64,000 bases of DNA from assembly GCA_964646765.1 (NCBI GenBank), contig CAZYIA010000004.1, positions 77,887 to 141,886 on the forward strand. The letters run 5' to 3'. A model generated the notes under the pieces. It made no database searches. It was not told the origin of the DNA and was given only the letters and a program-made list of their open reading frames with translations. This DNA comes from an uncultured Candidatus Saccharibacteria bacterium. GTDB taxonomy: Bacteria > Patescibacteriota > Minisyncoccia > Phycocordibacterales > UBA9973. Positions 5,901-62,590 of this stretch are shown here, one piece after another. The number at the start of each line of letters is the position of its first letter. Positions within the stretch are counted from its first letter, which is position 1. The translations under genes were made by a program, and so were the position numbers.

Positions 5901-6010
5901 TTTTTTGTGTGCGCGGAAACCCGTACTGACGCTACGGCTGACATGCGGACAACGGACAGCTTTTCGCGGTGAAAAGCGCGTTGACTCTGAGTGCACAAGG
6001 AGGCAACAAC

Positions 6011-7387
6011 ATGGAGATCAAGAAAATCTCCGAGCTGTTCGGCGTGGCCGCGCCGGACACCGCTCAAATCGAAGTGAACGAACCTTCGTTCGAAACGCCG
6101 GAAATAGACTCGGCGTACTCGTTTAACGAGGACCAGATCCGGCGTTTGCAGACCTGGTGGCGGGGCAAGGTGAAAAAGTCGATCTTCCTCACCGGGCCCA
6201 CCGGATGCGGGAAGACCACGCTGATCGAGCAGTTCGCCGCGCGCATCGGAGCCGATTTCTTTCTGGTTCCCTGCCACGGCAAGCTCGACATGGCCGAATT
6301 GCTCGGCAGCAAGGGCATCGCCAAGGATGGTTCGACGTTTTTCGAGCACGGTATCGGGGTGCGCGCCATGCGGCACCAGCGCCCGTGCATCCTGGCCATG
6401 GACGAGATGAACTTCGTCCCACCGGGCTCGATCGGCCTTCTCAACCGGATTACCGAGCTGAAAAGCTTTTCGATTCCGGAAACAGGAGAGGTGATCACGC
6501 CCATGCCCTGGGTCCGCATTGCGGCAACCGGTAACGCGGTCGAACGTGGTGACGATGCAGTTCGTTACCGCGGTACGCAGGCCATGAACGTCGCCCTGCT
6601 GAACCGGTTTCTCGGTATGCGGATGAACTACATGGAGGCGACATCGGAAGCTGCGATGTTGAATACGGCGATTCCTGGCCTGCACCCCAGGCTGATCGAG
6701 CGTCTGGTCGAGCTCGCCAATGAGGTGCGGAACGGATTTGCCCAGGGCACGCTGGAAGTCGTCATGTCCACCCGGACCCTGCTCGACATGGCCCAGGCCT
6801 TGTTCGACCGGAAGGCGCTTGTGGCGAAAAATCCAGTCGAAGAGGTCAACTGGGCGATGGAGTTCTGCCTGACCGACCTCGCGCGGCCGGAAGACCGCGA
6901 TGTGGTTGCACGGCTGGTTCAGGACAAGTTTCACGGCCTGAAGCTGTCCCCGGCAACCGCAACGGCGTCGCCAAAGCCGAAGACGTTCTCGTCGGCGCCT
7001 GTCGACCAGTCGAATGCCGAGATCAGCTTCTGGATTCATCCGAACCGTGGAGCCAAGGGTGCGGCATTCTGGGGATACGTCGAAAGCGACGGCGTATGTC
7101 GGTCCGTCAATGGCAACATTGACGAAGCAGCCCCGCGAGACGGCGAAATTCGCGACATGAAGTGGATCGCTGACCGCGCCAGGGACAAGGAAGCCAAGGG
7201 TTACACCAGGGTGTCAGCCCCTTGTCCGATTCTCCTGCCAACCGGCTCGAGTTCCTCGCAAAGCGAGGTCATCGATGCAGTCAGGGCTGTCGTTGAACTT
7301 GTGAGGGATTACAGGGACAACAAGCCCGTGCAAGTCCCGGGAAACCTGCAGGCCTTCATTGTCGAGGCCATGACAGCGTTCTCCTGA
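6011..7387 (+). CDS. AAA+ ATPase, MoxR/CbbQ/CobS-like (AAA_5) with C-terminal extension
   Basis: Walker A LTGPTGCGKTT, Walker B ILAMDEMNF. RBS AGGAGG. Confidence 0.85.
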   Translation: MEIKKISELFGVAAPDTAQIEVNEPSFETPEIDSAYSFNEDQIRRLQTWWRGKVKKSIFLTGPTGCGKTTLIEQFAARIGADFFLVPCHGKLDMAELLGSKGIAKDGSTFFEHGIGVRAMRHQRPCILAMDEMNFVPPGSIGLLNRITELKSFSIPETGEVITPMPWVRIAATGNAVERGDDAVRYRGTQAMNVALLNRFLGMRMNYMEATSEAAMLNTAIPGLHPRLIERLVELANEVRNGFAQGTLEVVMSTRTLLDMAQALFDRKALVAKNPVEEVNWAMEFCLTDLARPEDRDVVARLVQDKFHGLKLSPATATASPKPKTFSSAPVDQSNAEISFWIHPNRGAKGAAFWGYVESDGVCRSVNGNIDEAAPRDGEIRDMKWIADRARDKEAKGYTRVSAPCPILLPTGSSSSQSEVIDAVRAVVELVRDYRDNKPVQVPGNLQAFIVEAMTAFS

Positions 7388-10115: not shown

Positions 10116-10445
10116 GGTTCGCTCCTCGGCTCGAGAGGCCTCCACTGCGGAGAGCCATTCCTCTTTGCATAGGGGCAAGCCGTTGCAAGGTAGCGGCTAT
10201 GGTCGCGACGTCTGTTTTGGAACATCCGCGACCAAAATTGAGGGCAATGGTGCGAAGCTATCGGGTCAGCGCGGTCAACCCGGCGAGCAAAAGGACGGTT
10301 GCAACGATCGCACCGAGTGCCAGTGCGCTGCCCAGCAACGCCGACTTCAGCGGCGGCGGTGCGCTTCCTTCGATTTTCGTCGATGCTTTCATCGGTTCTG
10401 CTCCTGATTGCGGAGCAGAAACTCTCGATCAAAACCGATCGCTGA

Positions 10446-10892: not shown

Positions 10893-11378
10893 TCAGGGAT
10901 TCTCGCTCTGTTTCAGGATCGTTTCTATGAGCAGCAGCGTTGACCGCAGCTTTCGCTCGGCCTCGGCTGCCGCGTGACGCAGCACCAGGTCTACCAGACC
11001 CGTTGCCAGTAGACGTGCGGCCGTAGCGGACGAGACATCGAGAACATGATCGTCCACCGTGATGCCAACACGCTTGCGCTTCAGTGCCGCCGCGATGTGT
11101 CGCACGCACCATTCGTGAGCGGCTTCCTCGGCCCAGATCGGGATCGCCTTGCCGCCCGATGCAAACTCACCGATGCGTTTTTGTGTTTCGCGCGTGCGCG
11201 CGACACCATCCAGCTTCGGGACGATCGTTCGGCCCGAGAGGGCCTCCAGCTCTTCTGCCAGTTTCCCGCGAGATTCCATGCCGCCCAGCAAGTGCAGCAT
11301 GAGTCCGATGACATTCCGTACGGGATGATCGAGGAGCGGCCGTCCGATCCCCTTGTTCGCGCCTCGAGGCTTGGCCAT
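10893..11378 (-). CDS. hypothetical protein, paralog 1 of a duplicated pair
   Basis: Start MAKPRGANKG overlaps the Macro gene stop (TGATG). Paralogous to 10446..10892. Confidence 0.55.
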   Translation of the reverse strand: MAKPRGANKGIGRPLLDHPVRNVIGLMLHLLGGMESRGKLAEELEALSGRTIVPKLDGVARTRETQKRIGEFASGGKAIPIWAEEAAHEWCVRHIAAALKRKRVGITVDDHVLDVSSATAARLLATGLVDLVLRHAAAEAERKLRSTLLLIETILKQSENP

Positions 11379-11836
11379 CACCGGTTCTTCTCCGGGGGGA
11401 ACAGCCATACGTCCACGGTTCCGGACGGAATCTCGGCAAAGGCCTGCTCGATGCGCTGTTTGACGATATGCCACGAGAGTCCGCCCAGACCGCAGCCGAG
11501 CGCCGGGATCGCGATGGAGTCGATGGCGTTCATTCGCACCCACTCAACGAGTACCGGCAGACCGGCTTCGATGTACGCCATCTTTGACGGACTGCGCCAG
11601 AAGATCTTGGTCGGAAAATGAACAATGCGACGGCCGTCCTCGAGCCAGAAGTCGTGCAGCAATCCCGGCTTGAGTTCCTTGCGTGCGCAGGCCTGGCGGT
11701 ACGACTCGTAAGCGGCGGGAAAGCGTTGCCTGAACTCCAGCGCCAGACCTTTTCCCGCGATGCCTTGCCCGTTCACCGGGTTGACCAGCGCGCGGACTGG
11801 GGCGTCGAAGATGCTGCCTTGGCGTTCTTCAATCAT
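11378..11836 (-). CDS. Macro domain protein (ADP-ribose / O-acetyl-ADP-ribose processing family)
   Basis: GIAGKGLALEF...AIPALGCGLGGLSW matches the macro-domain glycine-rich loops. 152 aa. Confidence 0.8.
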   Translation of the reverse strand: MIEERQGSIFDAPVRALVNPVNGQGIAGKGLALEFRQRFPAAYESYRQACARKELKPGLLHDFWLEDGRRIVHFPTKIFWRSPSKMAYIEAGLPVLVEWVRMNAIDSIAIPALGCGLGGLSWHIVKQRIEQAFAEIPSGTVDVWLFPPEKNR

Positions 11837-12104
11837 TCGGGTTCATTGCCTCGTTGACGCGCATCAACAGCATGGCGCAGGCCAGGATCGCCATTGCTGC
11901 GGCAAATGCCGAGACGTAGGGGTGTCCGTCGAAGCTGGATCCGAAAGCGACGATGATCTCATGCGCCGACGCCCCGGTTGCGAGGTGACCGACAAGTAGC
12001 AAAAGGCCCATGAACACCGCCAGCGCGCCTACCGGCAGGAGGGCGTCAATCAGTTTGTAAGGCACGTCTGTTTTCCAGAAAATCGCGCAGCCGTACGCCC
12101 GCAT
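11829..12104 (-). CDS. small membrane protein (2 predicted TM)
   Basis: Hydrophobic segments LLPVGALAVFMGLLLLVGHL and AFAAAMAILACAMLLM. Its stop abuts the Macro gene start. Start uncertain (12104 or 12011). Confidence 0.45.
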   Translation of the reverse strand: MRAYGCAIFWKTDVPYKLIDALLPVGALAVFMGLLLLVGHLATGASAHEIIVAFGSSFDGHPYVSAFAAAMAILACAMLLMRVNEAMNPND

Positions 12105-12891
12105 CGGCGCGCGCGAAGTTGAACACCGGAATGCCCCAGCGGCTTGCGAGGGCGATCGCCTGCCCTGTCCCGCCCGTGGCAGGCCCGCGCTCCGCTTCGT
12201 TCTCCGCTCCGTCCGGGGTCCAGGCAATGACGAAATCGCTGGGTGTGCGGCAATCGGCACCGAGGATCTGGTGGGTGTTGCGCGCCATCAGCTTGCGGAC
12301 CGCCGGCGACAGCTTGTTCCAGGCCGGATGCAGACAGGCGGCCACCTCCATGGCTTCCTGTGTCGGCTCAACGAAAACCGAACGGCGACCATTGAACCCC
12401 GGCCACGGCAGAAAAATTTCCTTTTGCGCGCCGGCACCTTGCTCGAATGCTGTATCCGCGCCGCCCGCACCGCCGGAACGCAGCGTGTATCCCATGCGGG
12501 CAAGCCGGACAGCGGCTTCGGTCATGCGGGCCAACTGGTCAGGCGGTGTCTTGCGCGAACCGATGCCGGCGTAAGTCATGCTGATTTCCTTCGGGGGCAG
12601 CCCGGTCTCTGCCAGGCGCCGCCAGGCATGCTCTACCTCGGTTCCGTGACAGCGCAACGGAGCGCACGAACAAACAAGGCGGGAATCGGCCTTCAGACCC
12701 AGAAGCGCGGTCAACATTGCGGGGTCGCCTTGCGACACCCTGTAGGCCATACGATCGGCGTACTGCTCGCACACCTGGTCGCGGTCACCGTGCTCGCCGA
12801 TGACGTAGGGATTGCCGAATACCGTCCCGCGGCCGATGTAGATTGAACCGGGTGGCCAGTCGTTGAGGTTCTTGCGGTTGAGGATCTGCAT
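12046..12891 (-). CDS. fusion protein: N-terminal DUF4326-like domain (GNPY...CSC) + C-terminal DprA/Smf-like SLOG Rossmann domain
   Basis: N-terminus GSIYIGRGTVFGNPYVIG...CSCAPLRCHG. C-terminus GIGSRKTP...SGGAGGADTAFEQGA...HQILG...GGTGQAIALASRWGIPVFNF resembles DprA SGLARGIDxxAH...AVP. Confidence 0.65.
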   Translation of the reverse strand: MQILNRKNLNDWPPGSIYIGRGTVFGNPYVIGEHGDRDQVCEQYADRMAYRVSQGDPAMLTALLGLKADSRLVCSCAPLRCHGTEVEHAWRRLAETGLPPKEISMTYAGIGSRKTPPDQLARMTEAAVRLARMGYTLRSGGAGGADTAFEQGAGAQKEIFLPWPGFNGRRSVFVEPTQEAMEVAACLHPAWNKLSPAVRKLMARNTHQILGADCRTPSDFVIAWTPDGAENEAERGPATGGTGQAIALASRWGIPVFNFARADAGVRLRDFLENRRALQTD

Positions 12892-12904
12892 GCCGCCCGC
12901 CGGT

Positions 12905-13402
12905 TCAGGTTCCACTCAAGACAAATGCCTCTTCTGCAGGAATGAACGCGGCGAGCATCGAGCCCAGCAAGGTGTGCACGTAATTGCTGTACGGCAGGTT
13001 CAGCCTCGCGAGTCTGGCACGCAAAGCCGTGAACGAACCTGTTTCGTGGCCCGATTCCACAATCGTCGCCAGATCCCGGCCTGTCCATGCACAAAATCGC
13101 CCTTCGCGATCAAGACCAAACCAGTGCAGCGCGTCGAAACTAAGCTGTGCCGGCTCGCACGCGGCCACGCCGTACGGGATGAACGAGGCGTGCGTCACGG
13201 CGCATCCTTCGTTGGCGGGGTGATCCGCAATCAGGCCCCACGACCGGGTCTCTTTTGCGAGCATCACACGCACTCCCTGCACCGGTCGCCCGGAATCACC
13301 CCGTATCGCGTTGGACAGGACTACCGCATACGTTGGCCCGGCGAGGAACATGGGCGCAGACAAGACAAGCAAGCGTGTCTCCGTTATTTCGTGCGCCGGC
13401 AT
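12905..13402 (-). CDS. hypothetical protein (165 aa) at the head of the Macro operon
   Basis: Internal Met of the 12905..13957 ORF. Ends 13 nt before the next start. Confidence 0.4.
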   Translation of the reverse strand: MPAHEITETRLLVLSAPMFLAGPTYAVVLSNAIRGDSGRPVQGVRVMLAKETRSWGLIADHPANEGCAVTHASFIPYGVAACEPAQLSFDALHWFGLDREGRFCAWTGRDLATIVESGHETGSFTALRARLARLNLPYSNYVHTLLGSMLAAFIPAEEAFVLSGT

Positions 13403-16925: not shown

Positions 16926-17339
16926 TTAAGACCGAGGCGAAAGAGCGCCGCCATCGTCATCCCGCGAATTCGATGTCTTAATTATTCTCCATTTTCGGAG
17001 AAAAAGCAAGCCCGGAAACGTGTCAAGGCGCTGGTGCTTCCGGTAGAATCGCCGTGCAAGGTACACGAGCTGATACCAGCATACGGCGACAGCCAGCAGG
17101 CCCGCGCCACTTTGCCATGACACGCCGGGAAAATCCGGCAGCAGGATCGCGGCGATACCGCCTGCCGTGTAAGCCCACCCGGCCAGCATGAAAACGCCGA
17201 CACCCGCCACCAGTGCGCCCGGCAAGGCAGCCCACCACGGCATCGGGAGCCAGTACCGTATGCCAACAAAGAGCAGTACGCTGCAAAGCATGCCGAGTAC
17301 CACGGCCATCCAGCCCAGCACGTCAAACGGATGCATCAA
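16926..17339 (-). CDS. membrane protein (3-4 TM)
   Basis: Hydrophobic. Overlaps the upstream gene end. Confidence 0.5.
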
Positions 17340-17922
17340 CGCACCCCTCGGTCAGCGCTGCGAACCGTTCCAGAAACATTCGTCTCGCCCGTTCCGGCTC
17401 AACGGGAACGATTGTTTCCCTCAGCGGCTCGATCCCGTCCAGCAGCGACCACGGGACAGGATCGAAGGGCAGGAGGTCGCGGCGCTCGGTGGCGAGAAGC
17501 ACCAGGTCAGCGCGCTTGACCTCGGGCGGCAGCGGCATCGTGAGGCCGAAGCGCGCGAGGACGGCGCGCTCGACGCCTTCTTCAATCGCACGATAACCCG
17601 GCAGAATGTTCTTCAGTGGGGTCACCATGTCGCCGATGAACGCTTCGGGAGCATCGTGAAGCAGACCCGCGAGCGCCAGATGCGCGGGAAGAACGAGCGA
17701 AACCAGGACAGAGTGCTGCGCGACCGAATAGAAGCTACGCGTATGACCCGAAAAGCGGCACAGGTGCGACAACCCGTGCGCCACCTCCTCGATGCCGAAC
17801 ACGCTCTCCGACGGGTTGAGAAAGTCGAAATAATGGCCCCCTGCGGTCAGGATCGCGGGATGCACCCGTGCATCCTTCACGGCCGGATGGTGTGGGTGGT
17901 AGTCGAGAACGGCAGCATCCAT
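17323..17922 (-). CDS. HD-domain phosphohydrolase (YfbR-like 5'-nucleotidase fold)
   Basis: H...HD...D pattern: AQHSV...[23 protein letters not shown]. Confidence 0.65.
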
Positions 17923-17933
17923 GTTCGTTTCCC

Positions 17934-18185
17934 CTAGATCACGCTCTTCGGCAACATCGCCACATACTGCCCTTCCAGCTCCGGTTTGTAGAATCCCTGG
18001 CCGCTGACCTCCTCGTAGAGCTGCCGCATCGTGCGAAGCGTCGATTCGAGGCGCTTCTGATGACCGTCGCCCTCGAAGCGCGGGAAGCTGTCGTAGTAAC
18101 CTGGGCAGCCCAGGCCGTGGTCATAGCGGATCGCCATGCTCATCAGGAGCCCTGGCGGCGGTTCCTTCGGCAGCTCGTTTTTCAT
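17934..18185 (-). CDS. hypothetical protein (83 aa)
   Basis: Start overlaps the stop of the upstream small ORF (ATGA). Confidence 0.5.
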
Positions 18186-18349
18186 GCCGTCCCCTTCAAT
18201 CCACCATCACGTTCTTTGAGCGAGCGGTGCAGGCACTTCTTCCCGGTGGCGAACCACTCCACCGTAAAGAGGGCACGCGCCATCTGTTCGCTCAAAGGCC
18301 AGAAGACATCAGGCACCAGCAGCATTCCGTTCTTGCAGGTCAGTTTCAT
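18182..18349 (-). CDS. small protein (~55 aa)
   Basis: ATGA overlaps on both sides. [55 protein letters not shown]. Confidence 0.4.
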   Translation of the reverse strand: MKLTCKNGMLLVPDVFWPLSEQMARALFTVEWFATGKKCLHRSLKERDGGLKGTA

Positions 18350-18867
18350 GCGCCCTCGGGGATCTTGTTCGCCAGCATCAACGCCGCCGCGTGAAGCCGA
18401 GGATCAGCCCGAGTCAGGACTTCCAGAAGCCGGCGTTTTTCATCGAGGTACGTGATTGCGAAGGCGGGATCGTGTTGAACGATGCTCCCCGTGTTGCTGA
18501 TGAGGTCCGCGCACTTGATTGTCTGGACCCATCCCGGAGCCCGCGCGAGGCGATCACGCGAAGCGGCCATGCGCTGGGCACGGTTTCCGGTTTCGAGATC
18601 GGACAGCATCGCCACGCCGTACGCGACATCGGCACCGAAACGGTTCACCAGCTCCTCGTGGCTAACGCCCTGATCCTCCATGCAGTCGTGCAGCCAGCAC
18701 GCCGACATGAACTTGTCGGGGTGGATTTCGGGGCACCTCCAGCCTACAGACATGGCGATCCCCGCCACCTCTGCCAGGTGATCGGCATACGGGTTGCCGG
18801 TGTACTTGCGCCGCTGGTCCCGATGCGCTTCTCGGGCAAACATCATGGCGTCGTATGCGAGCGTCAT
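18346..18867 (-). CDS. HD-domain protein, SpoT/Mesh1-like small alarmone hydrolase family
   Basis: AREAHRDQRRKYTGNPYADHLAEVA...WLHDCMED. G-rich RBS. Confidence 0.7.
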   Translation of the reverse strand: MTLAYDAMMFAREAHRDQRRKYTGNPYADHLAEVAGIAMSVGWRCPEIHPDKFMSACWLHDCMEDQGVSHEELVNRFGADVAYGVAMLSDLETGNRAQRMAASRDRLARAPGWVQTIKCADLISNTGSIVQHDPAFAITYLDEKRRLLEVLTRADPRLHAAALMLANKIPEGA

Positions 18868-18877
18868 CTCCCCCCCC

Positions 18878-19684
18878 TCACACAAGCGCGTAAGCGCCAA
18901 ACGGACGATCTTCAGGCGCGTCGGCAACCCGCAGGTCGACCAGGCCGATGGACCGCTTGGGAGCAGCGATCACCCCGGTTTTTGCCATCGTCTCGACCAT
19001 GGTGAGGCAGCCTTCTTTCTTCAGGCCGCACTGCCCGAATACCGCGCCCGAATCGATGGCATAGACATTTGCCAGCCGGGTCGCGCCCGTCCATTGCGGC
19101 GTGTGACCGACAAACAAGCGTCCGACACCCCCCACTCCGCTCGTGTCCTGCCTGCGAATCCGATCCCGGCCCCACAAGCAGGTGTGGATGGTTTCTGTGT
19201 CGCCCGCCTCAAGGCGAAGAAGAAACTCGCCCCATCGCATGCCGGTCGGCACGTCCGCGTGAATCAGGCCGACTGAGCCGCGTGCGGTGTCCACCTCGAT
19301 GGCAAGGGGTAGTTTGCGGATTGCGTCGAGGATCTCCATGCGGCGATTCTCCGGCACGTCCAGCCACCACTCCAAGCCGTTATAGCGGCTGGCCACATCC
19401 AGGACTGCTGGATCGGGCACGCCGGCGCTGTAGAGTTCAAGCAGCATGTCCTCGTGATTCCCGCGCACCGCATGCACAAACGACTGGGCAAGAAATGCCG
19501 CGCAGCGATGCGAGCCTGGACCGCGGTCGATGAGGTCGCCGACACTGAAGAGGCGGTCGATCTGCGGGTCGAACCCGGCCTCTTTCATCGCGTCGAGCAC
19601 CAGGTCGAACGCGCCGTGGATGTCGCCGACGACGAAATCGCGACCCACGGTGTTCCGGGAGAATCGCTGGACCGTTTGCATCAT
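18878..19684 (-). CDS. Ser/Thr-phosphatase-fold metallophosphoesterase (PPP / ApaH-like)
   Basis: Motifs GDIHG, GDLIDRG, GNHE. AGGAAGG RBS. Start overlaps the ThiF gene stop. Confidence 0.85.
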   Translation of the reverse strand: MMQTVQRFSRNTVGRDFVVGDIHGAFDLVLDAMKEAGFDPQIDRLFSVGDLIDRGPGSHRCAAFLAQSFVHAVRGNHEDMLLELYSAGVPDPAVLDVASRYNGLEWWLDVPENRRMEILDAIRKLPLAIEVDTARGSVGLIHADVPTGMRWGEFLLRLEAGDTETIHTCLWGRDRIRRQDTSGVGGVGRLFVGHTPQWTGATRLANVYAIDSGAVFGQCGLKKEGCLTMVETMAKTGVIAAPKRSIGLVDLRVADAPEDRPFGAYALV

Positions 19685-20484
19685 GCCACCTTCCTTTGCG
19701 GACGCGCCTGTTTCACGGGTATCTGGTAGCCGAACCGCGCCCAGGCCTCCGGATCCACCGGCAATGGCGTCGCACGCCCCGTCGCGAGGTTGACGAAGAT
19801 GCCGTGGTGGTCGATTTTGCCGTGACGGAACAGCCTCCAGAGGAGATTCAGCCCCCAATCCGACACAGCCCTGTTGATAAAAAGATCCTGGCGCCCCAGA
19901 GCCTCTACCATTGAGCAGCTCGGCGTGTTGTCCTCCGGGATCGTGGGATCGAGGATGTCGGGGAACAGGTCGACAACAGTGGGCAGGCGGTCCGGACTGT
20001 CTTCCGGTCGCGTCCAGGTAGGCAAGGTTTGTCCAAGAATCGCCTGTCCCGAAGTTTCCTGGTTGCCAAGGTCGAGCCATAGCGCGTCGCAACTTTGCAG
20101 CGCCGCATGGATGTCGCGTCGTGCGGCCCGGTTGTCCACCGCCCCGATGACGAGGTCGGCGGAAACCCGCGTGTCTGCCGACAGGCGCTTGAACTCGGCA
20201 GTCCAGTCCAGCCCGTATGCCACGTTGATCCGATGCGTCAGCACGATAGCCTTGCTCGACCCCACGTCGGCCGGGTAGAAGGCCTGCCTTCCGACGTTCG
20301 AGTCGGACACAAGGTCGAAATCCATGGTGGTGACATCGAGGCCGCCTGGATGCCCCAACGCACGCATGGCGCGGTCGAGTTCGGCAAGCCCCGTCAGCAT
20401 CCGGGAACCGTTGCCACCGGCCCCGACCAACAGCACCTTTACGCTGCGTGAAAGCAGGTGACGCGGAATCGCAAATTCAGTCAT
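19681..20484 (-). CDS. PRTRC system protein B, ThiF/MoeB E1-like
   Basis: VLLVGAGGNGS Rossmann motif. GGAGGAGG RBS. ATGA coupling with the JAB gene. Confidence 0.85.
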   Translation of the reverse strand: MTEFAIPRHLLSRSVKVLLVGAGGNGSRMLTGLAELDRAMRALGHPGGLDVTTMDFDLVSDSNVGRQAFYPADVGSSKAIVLTHRINVAYGLDWTAEFKRLSADTRVSADLVIGAVDNRAARRDIHAALQSCDALWLDLGNQETSGQAILGQTLPTWTRPEDSPDRLPTVVDLFPDILDPTIPEDNTPSCSMVEALGRQDLFINRAVSDWGLNLLWRLFRHGKIDHHGIFVNLATGRATPLPVDPEAWARFGYQIPVKQARPQRKVA

Positions 20485-21113
20485 GCCTCCTCCATCAAGC
20501 CGCCGAGATCGACCGGCAGGTAGATGCCGAGTGCACACAATCGCGTCGCCAGTGCGGGGTTCTCGCCTTGCTCGTCGATCTTGCCCACGACAAGTGCGAT
20601 CTTCACCTCGCCACGATCATCCTGGTCATCCGTGCCGGAGAAGCCCGCCGCGTGCTGGCCATGCGAATGCATGTCCACCACCAGATGCTCCTGTTCGCCC
20701 AGACGCGGACGTTCGTAGTTGATATGGCTGCCGGAGGCGCTGATCTCGACGAAGCGCTCGTACCGCCAGGCATTCGTCGCCGCATTCCAGATGATGCCGC
20801 CGGCGATCTCCGTGTGGGGTGTTGCTGCCGCGTCGCGCAAGAAGTCGATCAGCGGCTGCCATTTGATCTTGCCGCAGCCGAGTTCGACGTGATGCCCGAG
20901 CTTGCCGTAGGGCATTGCCACACGGTCCTGTGTGGCCAGCGGAACCCGGACATACAGCCAGGGCCGATGGATCTCGATCCAGAGGCCGTCCTCGGCGGCG
21001 AGGAAGCGATGCCCCGGCGTGGTCAGCGGGACGAACGCCTCGTGGCGCGGCACCATGACGGTCGGCGTCACCGTTTGCAGCGTACGGTCGATCGGATTCA
21101 AGCTGCCGTCCAT
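20481..21113 (-). CDS. PRTRC system protein A, JAB/MPN metalloprotease
   Basis: JAMM motif HLVVDMHSHGQHAAGFSGTDDQDD. Confidence 0.8.
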   Translation of the reverse strand: MDGSLNPIDRTLQTVTPTVMVPRHEAFVPLTTPGHRFLAAEDGLWIEIHRPWLYVRVPLATQDRVAMPYGKLGHHVELGCGKIKWQPLIDFLRDAAATPHTEIAGGIIWNAATNAWRYERFVEISASGSHINYERPRLGEQEHLVVDMHSHGQHAAGFSGTDDQDDRGEVKIALVVGKIDEQGENPALATRLCALGIYLPVDLGGLMEEA

Positions 21114-21114
21114 T

Positions 21115-21858
21115 TCAGCCCCTCCCCTGCTTCTTGAGAGCGAGCACCAGATCGCCCAGGGTGAGATCGGCGGGCGCAAGATGCTTCGTTGGAAAGGTCT
21201 TGAACTTGCCGTCCGCGATCTCCTTCCACAGCCCGCCGACGCCTTTCCGGTGCCGCGTAAGCCGTTTGCCATGGTCGTTCGGATGGGTGAAGGCCGAGTC
21301 GAAGAACAGCGATTCCCATTGCGGGATCGCCTGCAGGCCCGTGCGATCCGGCCGCTGCGCGCTCCCCTGACATAGACGACAGTCCGACCAGGTGTTGTAG
21401 AACGGCGCCATCGAAAGCGGGGTGCCGGGTTCCGGGCGCTCCGATTTGGTGAGCGCGAACACGTAGAGATCGCCCCCCTTCACGGCGAACACCAGTGCCG
21501 GCAGGTGTGTGCTGATTGCCCGCTTGCCGATGGGGTCCGCCCTGTCGGTGTCGAAGAACAGGGTGCGCGCCCCCGCTTCTCGCCACCACACCATCCAGCC
21601 CGCGCCTACCGCAAGCGCATGGGAAGGAAGGTAGTCGATAGCCGAGTCGGGAACGAGTTTCTCGTTGAGCGCGATCAGGGCTTCCCGCGTCACCGGCGTA
21701 CCCGCGAGCAGAAATGGCGCACCGGCGTCGTCCGTGCCAACGCTATGGACGGTCGCAAACGGCTTGCCCATGCCGTTGGCCGGCTCGTAAACGAGCAGTC
21801 CGGTGGCAAGCCGCAGCGGGCTTTCCGTGAAACCGGAAGATACATCAATTCGATTCAT
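21115..21858 (-). CDS. PRTRC system protein (D-like)
   Basis: Position in the cassette. GAGGAGG RBS. Confidence 0.55.
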   Translation of the reverse strand: MNRIDVSSGFTESPLRLATGLLVYEPANGMGKPFATVHSVGTDDAGAPFLLAGTPVTREALIALNEKLVPDSAIDYLPSHALAVGAGWMVWWREAGARTLFFDTDRADPIGKRAISTHLPALVFAVKGGDLYVFALTKSERPEPGTPLSMAPFYNTWSDCRLCQGSAQRPDRTGLQAIPQWESLFFDSAFTHPNDHGKRLTRHRKGVGGLWKEIADGKFKTFPTKHLAPADLTLGDLVLALKKQGRG

Positions 21859-22939
21859 GTCCGACCTCCTCGCCGATCAGGCCCACGAGCGTGTCGAGCT
21901 TGTGCGCCAGGGCGAACCATTGTTTCTTGTGTGCGAGCCAACCCTTGAAACCATCGGGGCTGGCTTCGAAAATCTCGATGCCGAAGGAGTCCGAATACGC
22001 CTCGCCTCCCTGCATGACGTTCTGCTCGTAATCGTCAAGGATGCGCACCATCGGGTCATGATCCGAGGTGTCCCACCAGAGCAGCGCACCATGGCCAATG
22101 AAGTCGAGATCGTTCAGTCCTTCGTAGGCACCGAACGCCCGGAACTTCCGTCCAGCGCGTCGTAGCGCGAGGCAAGTGGCTGCGACCTGGCGGGCGCATC
22201 CGGATAAGCCCGTGTTCCGGGTGATGGCCTGTAGAGCACGCACAGACAGTGCCTTGCGGGGTATCCATGCCCACTCGGGTGCATAGTCGTCGAATTGCGA
22301 GCGCCTTACGATGTAGTCACCCGCTTCCTCCTCGCCGCCGATCTCCTCGATGACCTCCGTCTCATCGGGCTCACCGTACCAATAGAACATGGACGCAAGG
22401 TAGAAGGCGCGCGCCGGATCCATCACGTCAACCGTGCGGATCGCCGCTTCGCGGAGATCGTGAAGCGCGGTCCTGCCAAGGCCGGGACATTCGCATTCCA
22501 GCGCGTTCAGCACACGGCCAACAGTAAAGCTGCGCGAGGACGCCCCCCACGTCGTCACCGCGAGATGCGGGCGATCCGGATCCAGGCCGCGGGCTTCCAA
22601 AAGAGCGGCCCAGTCCCACGCGAAGTCCTGCTCCCCTTCGGCAAGCTGGATCGACAGAGAACAGGCGAGACGGTCGAACCGCCCGTTTCGGGTAGCCCAG
22701 TCCGACAGCGCGGCAAGGACGACGGCCTCCGCGTTGTAGGCGGACTTCCAGTGATGCGGTTTCACCAGACCCGCGTCGTCGCACCATAGCGCCAGGCTGG
22801 CCCATTCCGCCCGCTCGGGACGCAGAGAGATCCTGGTCGGCACACGGTCGAGTTTCGGCAAACCGGCATACACCGACGCGACCTGTCTGCGAGCCGGCCG
22901 CAGGGTTGCCCGTTGAGTGGTTTCGAGCCGGGCGTTCAT
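21845..22939 (-). CDS. PRTRC system protein (F-like)
   Basis: Position in the cassette. 364 aa. Confidence 0.55.
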   Translation of the reverse strand: MNARLETTQRATLRPARRQVASVYAGLPKLDRVPTRISLRPERAEWASLALWCDDAGLVKPHHWKSAYNAEAVVLAALSDWATRNGRFDRLACSLSIQLAEGEQDFAWDWAALLEARGLDPDRPHLAVTTWGASSRSFTVGRVLNALECECPGLGRTALHDLREAAIRTVDVMDPARAFYLASMFYWYGEPDETEVIEEIGGEEEAGDYIVRRSQFDDYAPEWAWIPRKALSVRALQAITRNTGLSGCARQVAATCLALRRAGRKFRAFGAYEGLNDLDFIGHGALLWWDTSDHDPMVRILDDYEQNVMQGGEAYSDSFGIEIFEASPDGFKGWLAHKKQWFALAHKLDTLVGLIGEEVGHESN

Positions 22940-23137
22940 GGCAGCAGGGGTAGCGCCGTCCAGTGCGGCACGGTCGGAGTTCCGTTTCGGTGTGCCGCAA
23001 GCACATCATGGATCAGCTTGCTGGAATCCAGGTTGGCGGCGTGATTTGTCGGGCTTGCGCCGCCCATCCGCGTCGCCGCCATGCTCTCCATCGCCGCCCG
23101 CCATTGCGCTCGGTTCAACCGCATGTATGGCGTCCGG

Positions 23138-23617
23138 TCAAGCATGGCAGCGCCCGGCTGCCGAGTTGCGGAGACTGTCCCGCGCCTCGATCAGCACCCG
23201 CATCGACATGGTGTCGCAGTCCCTCGCGTTGAGGCGAATGTCGATGGCTTCGAGTGCCTGGTCAAGCATCTTTTCGTTGGTCCGGCTCTCCGTCAGGAAG
23301 GCGCGCAGGCAGAGACCGCTCCTCTCGTTGCAGTCGGGGAGTAGGCAGCCAATGCAGATCCGCTCAGACAACTCGCTTGCCTGCCGGACACAGGCTTCGG
23401 TGGTCGAGATGGCCATCCCTTTCATCCCCGCGGCTCGCCGGAAGCTGTAGGTCATCTTGCCATCGCGCGCCTCGGGGCCTTCTACGGTGGCCGTCGCCAG
23501 TTCGGGATACGTGGCGCTGTACACGTCCCGCACCTGGTCGGGCGAGAGGTTGGGGTTGGGGTCGGGCAGCGTCACCCCTGCATAGGAAAAGCTGCGGACA
23601 AGTGCGGTCACTTTCAT
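23138..23617 (-). CDS. PRTRC system protein C (ubiquitin-like beta-grasp) continuing into a ~90-aa Cys-rich C-terminal extension
   Basis: N-terminal 70 aa MKVTALVRSFSYAGVTLPDPNPNLSPDQVRDVYSATYPELA...FRRAAGMKG is typical of PRTRC-C. The ORF continues with no stop. Confidence 0.55.
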   Translation of the reverse strand: MKVTALVRSFSYAGVTLPDPNPNLSPDQVRDVYSATYPELATATVEGPEARDGKMTYSFRRAAGMKGMAISTTEACVRQASELSERICIGCLLPDCNERSGLCLRAFLTESRTNEKMLDQALEAIDIRLNARDCDTMSMRVLIEARDSLRNSAAGRCHA

Positions 23618-23627
23618 GGCGACGGCC

Positions 23628-24068
23628 TCACTCGAACAGGTTTTCCGCCGATGCGGAGTTGGATTCGTCGGCTTCGCTGGCCGCCGTCGCTGCCGGCTCG
23701 GTGACCTTCACCGACACCGGTGTCGCAGCCGGGGTGGCGGCGGACTTGCCTGCCGCGCCCTTCACTGCTTTCGCCGCCTTGGACGTGGCGTCCTTCTTGG
23801 CCGCGTCGATCACTGCCTGGGTGTCCTTGAGGGCGTCGGCCAGCGATTTCCGGCTGACCTCGTAGCTGCCAAGGGCATCGGTGAAACCGGAGTCCAGTTC
23901 CTCCGGGGTGGCCTCGAATTGCAGTGGCTGGTGCAAGGCGGGGTTGGGGTTGTCGCCGACCGCTTTCGGCACGACGGTCACAATAAGCGTGCCCGCCTCA
24001 CGGTTGGCGCTGAAAGTCATCGCCAGGGTGGCGTCCTGCGCGATCTCGAAAATTTTCTGAAACAGCAT
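23628..24068 (-). CDS. PRTRC system protein E
   Basis: AAGGAG RBS. Ala/Lys-rich C-terminal half. Position next to the ParB-like gene. Confidence 0.6.
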   Translation of the reverse strand: MLFQKIFEIAQDATLAMTFSANREAGTLIVTVVPKAVGDNPNPALHQPLQFEATPEELDSGFTDALGSYEVSRKSLADALKDTQAVIDAAKKDATSKAAKAVKGAAGKSAATPAATPVSVKVTEPAATAASEADESNSASAENLFE

Positions 24069-24087
24069 GGGTATCTCCTTCTTGGGT

Positions 24088-25743
24088 TCAGACGCAGCAG
24101 GGTTCCTGCGTCTGTTCGCATTTCAGTTGCTTGATGGGTTTCGCCTTTTTCGCTTCGGCGTACTGCATGCACGCGGGAACCGCGCCCCGATACTCGAAGC
24201 CTTCGACTTTCAACAGGGCCGCGGCGATCTCGGCCTTCTTGCCGGTCATCGCTTTCTTGAAGCCCTCGCCGAGCGCCGCCTTGAGGCCGACTTCATTTGC
24301 CATTGCCTCGATTTCGCTCTTGGTGAGGAGATCGAGGAACGCGTCATCCATGATCCAGTGTTCGGCCAGATCGCAATCCATCGCCTGCAACAGCCGACAC
24401 ACGTCGGTTTCCGACAGGCCGTCCACGGCGGCCAGCGGGATCCGGGCGAGCATGCGGAAGATGTCCTCGTCCGAGCGGCCCTGTGTCGCGCTATACAGGT
24501 CGCCGACGGCAGCCCCCTTGATTTCGAGGTCGAGCTTGCGGCGCGCAATGTGGTGAGCATTACCGGAGAGGACAATCGCCAGCAGGGCACGACCGGCAAC
24601 CTCGACGCTCTTCCTCATTTCAGCCTGGAGCGCGCGTTTCCAGACGGAGAGCCGGTAATCCTTCAATCGCTGCGGTGCGGCAGCCTGGTTGACCTGCGCC
24701 GGCGGTTTCGCCTTTGCCTTGCCGTCCGTCTCCTTGCTGGCGGTCTGCTCGGGGGCAAGCGCTCTCACCTGCATCGACACTTTCTCGAGGTGGCAGGCGA
24801 CGTTAAAACAGAGGTCCGTCTCGATCTTGCCCTCGGAACCCGGCAATGCACTGACGGTGCAGCCGTAATCACCGCAGCCTTTGCAGGACTCGGCCTGCTC
24901 GGTACCGACGCCGACCCGGCCTTCAGCCACGACCGGGATCGTTTCGAGCACCGCGCCGGGGCGGACGAGCTCCACGCGCGGAAAGGCCTCCTGTTGCTCG
25001 ACGACGATCTCGGCCAGCCTGGTGTCGGTTTTCTTCGCATAGCAGACCGGGTTGGTGCAACTGCCCGCCGCGATGGATTGGGTGAACAGCTCCACCTGCA
25101 CGCTGGAGTTGTGCGGGCAGCCGCCACATTCGGATTTGTCGAAGATCGCGGCGCTCAGGTCATGGCTGATGGCAGCCAGTTGCTCACGCAGGGCGGCTAC
25201 CGGGATCGCCCCGGCGATCACCTTCTCCAGAACCTTGTCCTGCTTGTCCTTGGGGGCCGCGGCCAGCAATTCGGCATGCCCCAGGCTGATCTTGCGTGTA
25301 TTGAGCGCCTCGCGCACCGCCGGTGTCGCTTCCATCAACGCGAGACGACGGTGCAGCTTGGACATGGGCCAGCCGAGTTGCGCCGCGGCCTCCGCTCTGT
25401 CGCCCTTGAACTTCAGCACCAGCGCGTGGGCAGCAGCGGATTCTTCCGTGACCGCCATGTCGGCGCGAAGCGTGTTTTCCACGAGAGCCGCGATGTCGGC
25501 TTCGTCATCGGTCATTTCCCGGATGTTTGCCGGAATCGTGCCCGTCTCACCATACACGGCTTTCGCCGCGCGCCAACGGCGCTCACCCGCCACGATTTCG
25601 TACTGTTCGCCCTTTGGGCGGACCAGAATGGGCTGAAGAACGCCGCTGGCCCTGATGCTGTTTTCGAGATCCGTCATTTCTGCCGGATCGAAATACTGAC
25701 GGGGATTGCGCCCCGGAATGATGTTGTAAATGTTCAGTTCCAT
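24088..25743 (-). CDS. PRTRC-associated ParB-family protein
   Basis: ParB N-terminal motif ILVRP...GERRWRAA. Cys-rich middle. GAGGAGGG RBS. Confidence 0.85.
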   Translation of the reverse strand: MELNIYNIIPGRNPRQYFDPAEMTDLENSIRASGVLQPILVRPKGEQYEIVAGERRWRAAKAVYGETGTIPANIREMTDDEADIAALVENTLRADMAVTEESAAAHALVLKFKGDRAEAAAQLGWPMSKLHRRLALMEATPAVREALNTRKISLGHAELLAAAPKDKQDKVLEKVIAGAIPVAALREQLAAISHDLSAAIFDKSECGGCPHNSSVQVELFTQSIAAGSCTNPVCYAKKTDTRLAEIVVEQQEAFPRVELVRPGAVLETIPVVAEGRVGVGTEQAESCKGCGDYGCTVSALPGSEGKIETDLCFNVACHLEKVSMQVRALAPEQTASKETDGKAKAKPPAQVNQAAAPQRLKDYRLSVWKRALQAEMRKSVEVAGRALLAIVLSGNAHHIARRKLDLEIKGAAVGDLYSATQGRSDEDIFRMLARIPLAAVDGLSETDVCRLLQAMDCDLAEHWIMDDAFLDLLTKSEIEAMANEVGLKAALGEGFKKAMTGKKAEIAAALLKVEGFEYRGAVPACMQYAEAKKAKPIKQLKCEQTQEPCCV

Positions 25744-38300: not shown

Positions 38301-38450
38301 CCCTGTAGTGGTGTTGGGGGTAGTGCTATGTCTATCAAATTGTCGTGACGCATCACCTGTGGACAAGAAACAACCCGTACCCAATTCTGCGTTACAAGCG
38401 CTTCTTTTTTCGCTATGGTCGCGCAAACCCAGCTACCGGAGAGGTTGCAC

Positions 38451-49136: not shown

Positions 49137-49676
49137 TCACGATCGCTCCCGGTTGAGCATATCGGTAATCGATTCGGAGATCGGCCCCGCAATCACCGTG
49201 GTCGTCCGCGGCCCGAGTGCAAGCTTCAGCCTGGCAATCGCAGGGCGATATCTTTTTTCAGCCATGTCGGCAAGCTGGCGCCGGACGGCATCGGAAGCCC
49301 CGAGCGCGCGCTCCTCGTTGGTGTTGTCGTAAAGATCAGCAAGCTTGATCCGCATGGCGCTCGTTGAGCGTGAGGAGATGATGCGCTCGATGAAGGATGG
49401 ATAGGTTTCACCTTGTCCGCGGCAGAGGAGCTGGCACAACCTGATCACAGTTTCAGGATATCCACGCTCGCGCAGGGCGTTGGCTGTCGCGCCGGCGACA
49501 TCCTCGAGGACGTCGTGGAGAAGGGCGGCATGCTTCTCCACGACGTCCGCATCCGGCCCCAGCCGCATCATCACGCGCAACGGGTGGAAGTAGTAGGGTG
49601 CACCGAGCTTGTCCACCTGGTCCGCATGCAGATCGCAGACGAGCATGATGGTTTCGTTGATCGTCGGGCGCGTCAT
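49137..49676 (-). CDS. HD-domain protein, SpoT/Mesh1-like small alarmone hydrolase family (second copy in window)
   Basis: HPLRVMMRLG...LLHDVLED. Confidence 0.65.
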   Translation of the reverse strand: MTRPTINETIMLVCDLHADQVDKLGAPYYFHPLRVMMRLGPDADVVEKHAALLHDVLEDVAGATANALRERGYPETVIRLCQLLCRGQGETYPSFIERIISSRSTSAMRIKLADLYDNTNEERALGASDAVRRQLADMAEKRYRPAIARLKLALGPRTTTVIAGPISESITDMLNRERS

Positions 49677-62440: not shown

Positions 62441-62590
62441 GCAATCCATAACCATGTAACATTGCATGCGAATTCCGGCGAGCCAGATTGATTGAGTAGG
62501 TAACAACTTATTCGAAACCGGCATATTTGATTGACGACGCACCTCTTTTTGTGTAGGCTGGTTGCTATACAAATTTCATAGAGGTGCCAT

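What the first reader, a model, noticed from the sequence alone, without database searches (positions are those of the whole stretch)
17323..19684. Three phosphohydrolases (YfbR-like HD, SpoT/Mesh1-like HD, PPP/ApaH-like metallophosphatase) co-transcribed with the PRTRC cassette
Seen in sequence: ATGA/TGATG-coupled genes run directly downstream of PRTRC-B: metallophosphatase (GDIHG, GDLIDRG, GNHE), SpoT-like HD (RDQRRK...HDxxED), two tiny ORFs, then a YfbR-like HD protein (HD...D). A second SpoT-like HD gene lies at 49137-49676. Established knowledge: SpoT/Mesh1-type small alarmone hydrolases degrade (p)ppGpp/(p)ppApp. ApaH-type PPP enzymes hydrolyse Ap4A. YfbR-type HD enzymes are 5'-deoxynucleotidases. 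Mobile elements use nucleotide-degrading enzymes to blunt alarmone- or cyclic-nucleotide-based immunity. Inference: this trio could be a counter-defence or early-establishment module that clears toxic or signalling nucleotides in the recipient.
Basis: partly seen in the sequence, partly recalled or inferred. Interest (0 to 1): 0.55.

Follow-up and report, generated by a model that had tools for sequence, protein, structure and literature searches.

The report
Phage-type hydrolase cargo behind plasmid PRTRC
Three real and probably active phosphohydrolase genes sit behind a plasmid's ubiquitin-like PRTRC cassette, but they are separate phage-type accessory genes that come and go between related plasmids, not a conserved three-enzyme module or part of PRTRC.

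Summary
Three tightly packed minus-strand genes follow the PRTRC cassette. The gene just upstream is PRTRC-ThiF, not PRTRC-B.

- MPP (18878-19684) is a lambda NinI/PrpA-type protein phosphatase, not ApaH-like.
- HD4 (18346-18867) is a stand-alone small alarmone hydrolase. It is 39% identical to phage SSU5 PaSpo, which neutralises toxSAS toxins experimentally.
- HDy (17323-17922) is an Atu1052/YfbR-type HD hydrolase.
- The second HD gene (49137-49676) belongs to the Aph1 (p)ppApp-hydrolase family.

Catalytic motifs are intact in all four.

The module reading fails. Of 65 other PRTRC loci with at least 3 kb downstream, none carries HD4 or HDy and one carries MPP. The ThiF 3' flank is hypervariable. 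Within this plasmid clade, one relative joins ThiF directly to HDy, one has MPP-HDy, and one has a truncated MPP. Only the window lineage has HD4. In 160 viral loci the three families never co-occur.

A stand-alone DarG-type macrodomain lies in the same co-directional array. This keeps an "orphan eraser enzymes" counter-toxin or counter-defence reading plausible, but it is untested.

Verdict: new members of known kinds, of modest interest.

The parts
18878..19684 (-). MPP: lambda NinI/PrpA-type calcineurin-like metallophosphatase (268 aa); its start overlaps the ThiF stop (ATGA)
   Evidence: Pfam Metallophos 2e-11 and NCBIfam PrpA 1e-36 over the full length, against ApaH 3e-16 for the N-terminal part only. 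PDB 1g5b lambda phosphatase 6e-19, with GDxHG, GDxxDRG, GNHE and GHTP aligned. phrog_246 NinI-like 1.8e-57.
18346..18867 (-). HD4: stand-alone small alarmone hydrolase (RSH hydrolase domain, 173 aa)
   Evidence: Pfam HD_4 3e-10. PDB matches to P. aeruginosa SAH 6yvc and Mesh1 3nqw at about 5e-8. 39% identical to SSU5 PaSpo gp099, E 7e-24. R12, H15, R20, H30, H60-D61, E64-D65, K118, D121 and N125 are conserved in at least 97% of 121 family members.
18182..18349 (-). s55: 55-aa ORF, translationally coupled on both sides, no homologue outside near-identical copies
   Evidence: Called as a gene on independent contigs. No Pfam, PHROG or PADLOC hit. GC3 0.73.
17934..18185 (-). s83: 83-aa conserved small protein of unknown function
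   Evidence: phrog_30214 1.9e-12. 80% identical copy directly after an MPP homologue in Thiobacillus locus L017.
17323..17922 (-). HDy: Atu1052/YfbR-type HD phosphohydrolase (199 aa)
   Evidence: PDB 2gz4 (Atu1052) 4e-21. Pfam YfbR-like 1.5e-6. phrog_318 'deoxyribonucleoside 5' monophosphate phosphatase' 7e-74. R56, H70, H89-D90, E93, D98 and D139 are conserved in at least 97% of 121 homologues.
16926..17336 (-). d136: small predicted membrane protein; its start overlaps the end of HDy by 14 nt; conserved partner of HDy
   Evidence: Homologues directly follow HDy in L014, L015 and L262. No family hit.
19681..25743 (-). ParB plus the PRTRC cassette (E, C, o69, F, B, A, ThiF), the upstream context from which the hydrolase genes are probably read through
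   Evidence: NCBIfam PRTRC_ThiF 1.7e-94, PRTRC_A 1.3e-63, PRTRC_B 1.6e-61. Pfam ParB_N, Prok_Ub, Prok-E2_D and Prok-JAB. Junction gaps of 19 nt or less.
49137..49676 (-). Second HD gene: Aph1-family (p)ppApp hydrolase homologue, unlinked to the trio
   Evidence: PDB 7smg 6.6e-15. phrog_990 1.4e-27. Only marginal similarity to HD4 (E 0.03). Preceded by a RusA-like gene and followed, after a 147-aa ORF, by an integrase.
11378..11836 (-). Stand-alone DarG-type macrodomain in the same co-directional array (context for the 'eraser' reading)
   Evidence: PADLOC DarG 3.2e-56 covering only the macrodomain half, positions 1-148 of 329. PDB DarG macrodomains 5m3i and 5m31 at about 1e-34. Neighbouring ORFs have no DarT/DUF4433 hit.

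Best explanation
**What it is.** The three enzymes are separate, individually mobile accessory genes of phage type. They have accumulated in a hypervariable cargo slot just 3' of PRTRC-ThiF on a RepA-type plasmid. In this lineage they are probably read through from the ParB/PRTRC operon, but they are not part of PRTRC and do not form an obligate three-enzyme pathway.

**Most likely mode of action (inferred).** Each is an "eraser" that undoes a toxic or growth-arresting modification in the cell that carries or receives the plasmid.
- HD4 is a PaSpo-like small alarmone hydrolase. It would remove the 3'-pyrophosphate from (p)ppGpp, (p)ppApp and pyrophosphorylated tRNA CCA ends. That would neutralise toxSAS/CapRel-type toxins and Tas1-type effectors, or relieve stringent arrest.
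- MPP is a Mn-dependent NinI/lambda-type protein phosphatase. It would reverse Ser/Thr/Tyr/His phosphorylation by host or toxin kinases.
- HDy is a YfbR/Atu1052-type HD phosphohydrolase acting on a nucleoside monophosphate-like substrate that is still unknown. It may work with the small membrane protein d136.

**Shown versus inferred.** Gene models, family membership, intact catalytic motifs, tight coupling, lack of linkage to PRTRC, and gain and loss among relatives are shown. Substrates, timing of expression and any counter-defence effect are inferred.
For: - **Family assignments and intact motifs:**
- **Phage origin.** The closest non-plasmid relatives of HD4 (66-77% identity) lie in prophage early regions beside RdgC, NinB/NinG/NinX, DNA methylases and integrases. 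In the phage collection, HD4 homologues occur in 183 records and HDy homologues in 328. IMG/VR gave at least 132 confirmed hits for HD4 and at least 589 for HDy.
- **Not part of PRTRC.** Of 65 PRTRC loci with at least 3 kb downstream of ThiF, none has HD4, none has HDy and one has MPP, by tblastn and by HMM. The 360 downstream ORFs fall into 244 clusters, and the commonest family is present in only 11 of 65 loci.
- **Flux within the clade.**
  - L261 (ThiF 94% identical) joins ThiF directly to HDy and keeps the first ATGATGCAAA of MPP, which looks like a deletion scar.
  - L262 (71%) has MPP-HDy.
  - L014 (70%) has a 76-aa MPP remnant and no HD4.
  - L016 has HD4 and HDy without PRTRC or MPP.
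- **No co-occurrence in viruses.** None of 160 viral loci carries a second member of the trio within 10 kb.
- **Experimental precedent.** Stand-alone phage SAHs neutralise all tested toxSAS (PMC7229694). SAHs restore pyrophosphorylated tRNA (bioRxiv 10.1101/2021.04.30.441581). PaSpo is used to tame CapRel (PMC9712102). HD4 is 39% identical to PaSpo.
- **Thematic context.** The plasmid also carries an orphan DarG macrodomain and an Aph1-like (p)ppApp hydrolase.
Against: - No biochemical or expression data exist for any of these proteins.
- The biological role of lambda NinI is itself unknown, and no paper found here assigns it an anti-defence role.
- None of the three families appears in a 2025 catalogue of 268 anti-defence proteins.
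- PADLOC gives no hit for the trio, but that library covers defence proteins, not counter-defence.
- Loss of MPP in two relatives, and absence of HD4 from all of them, could equally mean neutral and dispensable cargo.
- HDy is stable in all four clade members and always sits next to ThiF or close to it. A lineage-specific functional tie between HDy and PRTRC cannot be excluded.
- Leading-region position is unknown.
Confidence: 0.6

Rival explanations
1. The three enzymes form one cooperative counter-defence or establishment module that is functionally tied to PRTRC.
For: - The genes are tightly coupled behind ThiF.
- All three are phosphohydrolases with intact sites.
- Pairs recur on some plasmids. 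HD4 and HDy occur together in L016. HD4 and MPP lie within 6 kb of each other on Burkholderia pBVIE01, and tblastn places both on three related plasmids.
Against: - Of 65 other PRTRC loci, none has HD4, none has HDy and one has MPP.
- The closest relatives lack MPP and/or HD4.
- In 160 viral loci no two of the families lie within 10 kb of each other.
Confidence: 0.08
2. They are host-physiology or nucleotide-pool modulators (auxiliary metabolic genes) rather than counter-defence genes. The SAH would lower (p)ppGpp to keep replication and transcription running. The HD nucleotidase and the phosphatase would tune nucleotide or phosphoprotein pools for the plasmid's benefit.
For: - PHROG labels HDy a deoxyribonucleoside 5' monophosphate phosphatase.
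- A phage genome paper hypothesises that a phage SAH reprograms the stringent response (PMC12846349).
- A 2026 preprint shows that the stringent response restricts phage and that phages suppress alarmone synthesis.
Against: - A plasmid has no obvious need for dNMP disposal.
- This rival overlaps with the best explanation. Relieving alarmone arrest is the same chemistry, so the two are not cleanly separable without experiments.
Confidence: 0.22
3. They are neutral, decaying hitch-hiker cargo with no current function in the plasmid.
For: - MPP is truncated in L014 and deleted in L261.
- HD4 is absent from all diverged relatives.
- The slot is hypervariable.
Against: - The reading frames are intact.
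- Catalytic residues are fully conserved.
- RBSs are good and the genes are translationally coupled.
- The identical array was recovered from about 97 collection blocks.
- HDy is retained in all four clade members at 74-89% identity.
Confidence: 0.07
4. They are antitoxin halves of plasmid-addiction (toxin-antitoxin) pairs, for example HD4 as a SAH antitoxin to an adjacent toxSAS.
For: SAH antitoxins exist, such as ATfaRel (PMC7229694).
Against: - No RSH synthetase or any other toxin-sized gene is adjacent. The neighbours are 55 and 83 aa with no toxin family hit.
- Phage homologues of HD4 also stand alone.
Confidence: 0.03

Closest known systems
Stand-alone phage small alarmone hydrolases (PaSpo of Salmonella phage-plasmid SSU5; PbcSpo of PVP-SE1)
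   Same: HD4 is a single-domain RSH hydrolase on a mobile element with no adjacent synthetase. It is 39% identical to SSU5 gp099 over residues 1-151. The hydrolase motifs are all present.
   Different: HD4 is plasmid-borne and sits behind a PRTRC cassette. Its activity is untested, and its subfamily was not assigned by phylogeny.
Bacteriophage lambda NinI (lambda Ser/Thr protein phosphatase, PDB 1g5b) and E. coli PrpA/PrpB
   Same: The alignment covers the full length and all metal-binding motifs are present. MPP falls in phrog_246, the NinI-like family.
   Different: MPP has a C-terminal extension of about 50 aa. Its scores are far below the PrpA equivalog cut-off (127 against 326 bits), so it is a family relative and not an orthologue. 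The substrate is unknown.
Atu1052 (PDB 2gz4) and the E. coli YfbR 5'-deoxynucleotidase family of HD hydrolases
   Same: The HD fold is shared, and the pattern of conserved R, H, HD, E, D and D residues is retained.
   Different: The match to YfbR itself is weak (NCBIfam 7e-4, 19 bits against a 122-bit cut-off). Atu1052 has no assigned function. HDy is paired with a small membrane protein.
Aph1 (p)ppApp hydrolase of Bacteroides caccae (PDB 7smg, PMC10083569)
   Same: The second HD gene (49137-49676) aligns over residues 6-123 at 6.6e-15. It lies near an integrase, as about 14% of Aph homologues do (PMC10083569).
   Different: No Apk/Tas1-type toxin is adjacent. This gene is not part of the trio.
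Anti-defence islands in plasmid leading regions (PMC11541004)
   Same: It is a long co-directional array of small, tightly packed accessory genes. The array includes candidate counter-toxin enzymes: a SAH and an orphan DarG macrodomain here, and a weak Pfam Lar match in a relative.
   Different: No oriT or relaxase was located. No ArdA, KlcA, PsiB or SSB was found among the roughly 50 ORFs scanned against Pfam (about a third of the called ORFs were not scanned). The paper's text does not mention hydrolases, HD domains, ThiF or ubiquitin, and mentions ParB only as the hok/sok locus name in its references.

Membership tests
PRTRC cassette (ParB-related, ThiF-related cassette) | The gene family is a recurrent component found next to PRTRC E, C, F, B, A and ThiF across elements | tested here: not met
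   Of 65 PRTRC loci with at least 3 kb downstream, none has HD4, none has HDy and one has MPP. The downstream region is hypervariable.
RSH small alarmone hydrolase (SAH; Mesh1, PaSAH, PaSpo) | Single HD_4 hydrolase domain with the R/K, H, HD, ED and D...N catalytic motifs, and no synthetase domain | tested here: met
   Pfam HD_4 scores 40.3 bits against a 27.2-bit cut-off. Alignments to 6yvc and 3nqw. Conserved R12, H15, R20, H30, H60-D61, E64-D65, D121 and N125. The protein is 173 aa.
RSH small alarmone hydrolase (SAH; Mesh1, PaSAH, PaSpo) | Hydrolysis of (p)ppGpp, (p)ppApp or 3'-pyrophosphorylated tRNA | not testable with these tools
   This needs an enzyme assay or a toxSAS rescue experiment.
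Lambda-phosphatase / PrpA-type PPP metallophosphatase | GDxHG, GDxxDRG, GNH[ED] and downstream His motifs, with full-length similarity to lambda PPase | tested here: met
   1g5b aligns over residues 15-219 at 6e-19 with the motifs in register. NCBIfam PrpA covers 6-217 of 268 at 1e-36, which is below the equivalog cut-off. phrog_246 1.8e-57.
ApaH symmetrical Ap4A hydrolase | Full-length similarity, including the ApaH-specific C-terminal cap region | tested here: not met
   The ApaH models match only residues 16-147 or 17-83, at 59.5 bits against a 176-bit cut-off and 37.5 bits against a 222.85-bit cut-off. In the PDB ApaH alignment (9t9n) the only significant match covers residues 17-164; the C-terminal stretch scores below zero.
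YfbR-type HD 5'-deoxynucleotidase | HD-domain metal ligands H, HD and D, plus the catalytic E and the substrate R | tested here: met
   R56, H70, H89-D90, E93, D98 and D139 are conserved. Pfam YfbR-like scores 28.5 bits against a 25.9-bit cut-off. The correspondence with YfbR residue numbers rests on my recollection of the YfbR structure paper, not on a tool result.
YfbR-type HD 5'-deoxynucleotidase | Orthology to E. coli YfbR, or dNMP phosphatase activity | tested here: inconclusive
   The NCBIfam equivalog scores only 19.3 bits against a 122-bit cut-off. The closest solved structure is Atu1052, which has no known function. Activity cannot be tested here.
Aph1 (p)ppApp hydrolase family (second HD gene) | Sequence similarity to Aph1, with the HD and ED motifs | tested here: met
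   7smg matches at 6.6e-15 over residues 6-123, with HP, LHDVLED and KLADLYDN aligned.
Plasmid leading-region anti-defence island | Position directly downstream of oriT on the first-transferred side, with genes oriented away from oriT | not testable with these tools
   No oriT, relaxase or T4SS was found among the roughly 50 window ORFs scanned against Pfam, or in the 10 kb to the left of the window. Co-orientation of the array is met.
Known anti-phage defence systems (PADLOC) | A match to a defence-system protein model | tested here: not met
   MPP, HD4, s55, s83, HDy, d136 and the second HD gene give no hit at 1e-3. Only the macrodomain protein hits, and it matches DarG.

The most novel reading that the evidence does not exclude
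The 17-kb co-directional array behind ParB/PRTRC may be a plasmid "eraser island". It would be a collection of orphan reversal enzymes carried without their cognate toxins:
- a PaSpo-like SAH;
- a NinI-type protein phosphatase;
- an HD nucleotidase;
- a DarG-type macrodomain;
- elsewhere on the plasmid, an Aph1-like (p)ppApp hydrolase.

Together these would give the plasmid broad, mechanism-level immunity against toxSAS/CapRel, DarTG, kinase toxins and (p)ppApp effectors in new hosts. The slot 3' of PRTRC-ThiF would act as a hotspot for acquiring such genes.
Probability: 0.3. Interest if true: 0.6.

Novelty: new member of a known kind. Interest (0 to 1): 0.3.

Why it matters
If the eraser reading is right, plasmids would defeat abortive-infection and toxin systems by enzymatically undoing the effector's chemistry, rather than by inhibiting the sensor. 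That strategy has so far been shown for alarmone hydrolases only in co-expression experiments. It would also give testable substrates for NinI-type phosphatases and Atu1052-type HD proteins, two very common phage and plasmid genes whose roles are unknown. As it stands, the main value is corrective. The three genes are ordinary, shuffled phage-type cargo, and they tell us nothing about how PRTRC works.

Tried and rejected
- **Megablast of 16-22 kb against PLSDB:** no match.
- **PRTRC literature:** 43 papers mention it, but the abstracts and the paper read give no functional characterisation.
- **NinI / lambda phosphatase literature:** nothing on a biological or anti-defence role.
- **Leading-region paper and anti-defence catalogue:** neither mentions HD domains, phosphatases or alarmone hydrolases.
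- **Promoter and terminator scan:** counts equal the shuffled expectation, so it is uninformative.
- **Walking 10 kb left of the window:** only Rep3-like, helicase, HATPase and DUF3150 genes, with no transfer genes.
- **Toxin-antitoxin reading of the second HD gene:** rejected, because the upstream gene is RusA-like and not an RSH toxin.
- **ApaH assignment for MPP:** rejected in favour of NinI/PrpA.
- **Structure prediction and fold search:** judged unnecessary and not run, because solved homologues were found by sequence for all four enzymes.
Full report
**What is there.** On the minus strand a tightly packed gene array runs from a ParB homologue (24088-25743) through the PRTRC cassette. The cassette order is E 23628-24068, the Ub-like C 23138-23617, a 69-aa ORF (o69), F 21845-22939, the E2-like B 21115-21858, the DUF2016+JAB protein A 20481-21113, and ThiF 19681-20484. 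The array then continues into the flagged region. The flagged region holds MPP (18878-19684), HD4 (18346-18867), s55 (18182-18349), s83 (17934-18185) and HDy (17323-17922), followed by a small membrane protein, d136 (16926-17336). Gene callers on independent metagenome contigs give the same models. Every junction from ParB to d136 has a gap of 19 nt or less, and seven junctions overlap. ThiF/MPP, HD4/s55 and s55/s83 share ATGA. The gene just upstream of MPP is PRTRC-ThiF, not PRTRC-B. Co-transcription is therefore plausible, but it rests only on spacing. The terminator and promoter scan found no more sites than shuffled sequence gives.

**What the enzymes are: MPP.** MPP carries GDIHG, GDLIDRG, GNHE and GHTP. 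Its best matches are full-length ones to PrpA (NCBIfam 1e-36), lambda phosphatase (PDB 1g5b, 6e-19) and phrog_246 "NinI-like serine-threonine phosphatase" (1.8e-57). ApaH models match only the N-terminal part and score far below their cut-offs. MPP is thus a NinI/PrpA-type PPP phosphatase rather than an ApaH.

**What the enzymes are: HD4.** HD4 starts at M21 of the 193-aa ORF. It matches Pfam HD_4 and the solved small alarmone hydrolases of P. aeruginosa (6yvc) and Drosophila and human Mesh1 (3nqw, 5vxa). All RSH hydrolase motifs are conserved across 121 family members. HD4 is 39% identical, over its whole catalytic domain, to gp099 of phage-plasmid SSU5, the PaSpo SAH.

**What the enzymes are: HDy.** HDy matches the structural-genomics protein Atu1052 (2gz4, 4e-21), Pfam YfbR-like, and phrog_318 "deoxyribonucleoside 5' monophosphate phosphatase" (7e-74). 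It keeps the conserved R, H, HD, E, D, D pattern. Its match to E. coli YfbR itself is weak.

**The second HD gene.** The gene at 49137-49676 misses Pfam thresholds, but it matches Aph1, the (p)ppApp-specific hydrolase (7smg, 6.6e-15; PMC10083569). It sits between a RusA-like gene and, after one further ORF, an integrase.

**What kind of replicon this is.** The window is plasmid-like. It carries RepA_C (38415-39443), a ParA/MipZ gene, an actin-like segregation protein, KfrA, topoisomerase III, a RES-Xre toxin-antitoxin pair and an integrase. The identical array occurs in about 97 blocks of the metagenome collection, including a 174-kb contig. No relaxase, oriT or T4SS was found among the roughly 50 window ORFs scanned against Pfam, or in the 10 kb to the left. 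About a third of the called ORFs were not scanned. Leading-region status therefore cannot be judged.

**Is the trio part of PRTRC?** I built a ThiF alignment (A1) and collected 80 PRTRC loci from species-representative genomes, at 46-57% ThiF identity. Of the 65 loci with at least 3 kb downstream of ThiF, none has an HD4 or HDy homologue within 10 kb. This holds both by tblastn and by family HMMs. One locus, Thiobacillus L017, has an MPP homologue 6.2 kb downstream, followed by an s83 homologue. The 4 kb after ThiF is hypervariable. Its 360 ORFs fall into 244 clusters, and the commonest family is present in only 11 of 65 loci. The trio is lineage-specific cargo in a variable slot.

**Is the trio a module?** Within the plasmid's own clade the content changes quickly.
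- In L261 (ThiF 94% identical), ThiF is followed directly by HDy. The junction keeps the first ten bases of MPP (ATGATGCAAA), which looks like a deletion scar.
- L262 (71%) has a 68-aa ORF, then MPP, HDy and d136.
- L014 (70%) has a 76-aa MPP remnant, three unrelated small ORFs, and then HDy and d136. A varied set follows, including DUF1643, DUF4326, a macrodomain gene and a weak Pfam match to Lar (restriction alleviation).
- HD4 and s55 occur only in the window lineage.
- HDy-d136 is the stable pair, and MPP-s83 recurs in L017.

Elsewhere, HD4 and HDy occur together without PRTRC on another plasmid-like contig (L016). On Burkholderia pBVIE01, HD4 and MPP lie 5-6 kb apart among hypothetical genes, and tblastn places both on three related plasmids. 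In IMG/VR, 80 loci seeded with HD4 and 80 seeded with HDy each carry only the seed family within 10 kb. The three genes therefore behave as independent units.

**Where they come from.** The nearest relatives of HD4 outside the plasmid (66-77% identity) are in prophage or phage early regions. They lie beside RdgC, NinB, NinG, NinX, DNA methyltransferases and integrases. HD4 and HDy homologues occur in 183 and 328 phage records respectively. MPP belongs to the lambda nin-region NinI family.

**How it most likely works.** Established knowledge points to a reversal function for HD4.
- Stand-alone phage SAHs (SSU5 PaSpo, PVP-SE1 PbcSpo) neutralise every toxSAS tested (PMC7229694).
- SAHs remove the pyrophosphate that toxSAS enzymes put on tRNA CCA ends (bioRxiv 10.1101/2021.04.30.441581).
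- PaSpo is used to tame CapRelSJ46 during protein expression (PMC9712102).
- Aph1 protects against (p)ppApp synthetase toxins, including Tas1 (PMC10083569).

The same array holds a stand-alone DarG-type macrodomain (PADLOC DarG 3e-56 over the macro half only; PDB DarG macrodomains about 1e-34). It has no DarT next to it. I therefore infer that these genes act individually as "erasers" of toxic modifications or alarmones, helping the plasmid persist or establish itself. For MPP (protein dephosphorylation) and HDy (an unknown nucleotide substrate) this is inference by analogy only. A milder rival, general relief of stringent arrest or tuning of nucleotide pools, cannot be separated from this reading without experiments. 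Neutral cargo is less likely, because the frames, catalytic residues and coupling are all intact. However, the repeated loss of MPP shows that it is dispensable in some settings.

**Novelty.** All four enzymes are new members of known families in a known kind of setting, namely shuffled accessory genes of phages and plasmids. None of these families is listed in a 2025 catalogue of 268 anti-defence proteins. The eraser-island idea is therefore untested rather than known. The finding says nothing about the mechanism of PRTRC.

Noticed in passing
window 11378-11836 (-): A stand-alone 152-aa DarG-type macrodomain with no DarT beside it. PADLOC DarG scores 3e-56 over the macro half only, and PDB 5m3i and 5m31 score about 1e-34. 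It is a candidate orphan reversal enzyme against DarT DNA ADP-ribosylation.
   Followed up: partly
window 23138-23617 (-); compare L262:3283-3780, L017:2747-3250, L014:4889-5399: The PRTRC Ub-like protein C is 159 aa here. The Ub-like part ends in ...AAGMKG and runs in frame into a Cys-rich protein of about 90 aa. In L262 and L017 a stop codon follows that terminal Gly directly, and in L014 it follows two residues later (...TKGKS*). This may be a Ub-fusion precursor that the cassette's JAB peptidase would have to process.
   Followed up: partly
L261:2921-3010 versus window 19655-19714 and 17893-17962: In a 94%-identical relative, ThiF is joined directly to HDy. The junction keeps the first ATGATGCAAA of MPP, which looks like the scar of a 1.75-kb deletion that removed MPP, HD4, s55 and s83.
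   Followed up: yes
window 16926-17336 (-) with 17323-17922; L014, L015, L262: HDy is always followed by a small predicted membrane protein (d136; 33-40% identical in relatives) whose start overlaps the end of HDy. This may be a two-gene unit of unknown function.
   Followed up: partly
L017:12032-13096 (Thiobacillus denitrificans) and window 17934-19684: MPP (67% identical) and s83 (80% identical) are directly adjacent in Thiobacillus. In the window, HD4 and s55 sit between them, as if inserted.
   Followed up: partly
window 12046-12915 (-): A fusion protein with an N-terminal DUF4326 domain (7e-17) and a C-terminal DprA-like domain (phrog_768, 1.3e-55). It is conserved at 75% identity in relative L014.
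   Followed up: no
window 8094-10178 (-) and 5969-7387 (+): A CobT-like VWA protein with a long acidic, low-complexity middle region is paired with a MoxR/CbbQ-type AAA+ ATPase (phrog_249). Phage-plasmid SSU5 has an adjacent gene pair (gp049/050) that carries the same 'porphyrin biosynthesis' annotation as phrog_249; homology to that pair was not tested.
   Followed up: no
window 39595-40645 (+), 38415-39443 (+): A RES-domain toxin (6.5e-33), with a small upstream ORF that may be its partner (not scanned), lies right after the RepA_C replication gene.
   Followed up: no
window 49673-50212 (-), 48509-48952 (-), 47310-48512 (-): A RusA-like resolvase, the Aph1-like hydrolase, a 147-aa ORF and a tyrosine integrase form a phage-like gene string on the plasmid.
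   Followed up: partly
window 55849-56769 (-), 60880-62400 (+), 62001-64000: A GGDEF diguanylate cyclase gene and a DDE transposase (DUF772/DDE_Tnp_1). G+C drops to 0.49 in the last 2 kb, which suggests a junction with foreign DNA.
   Followed up: no
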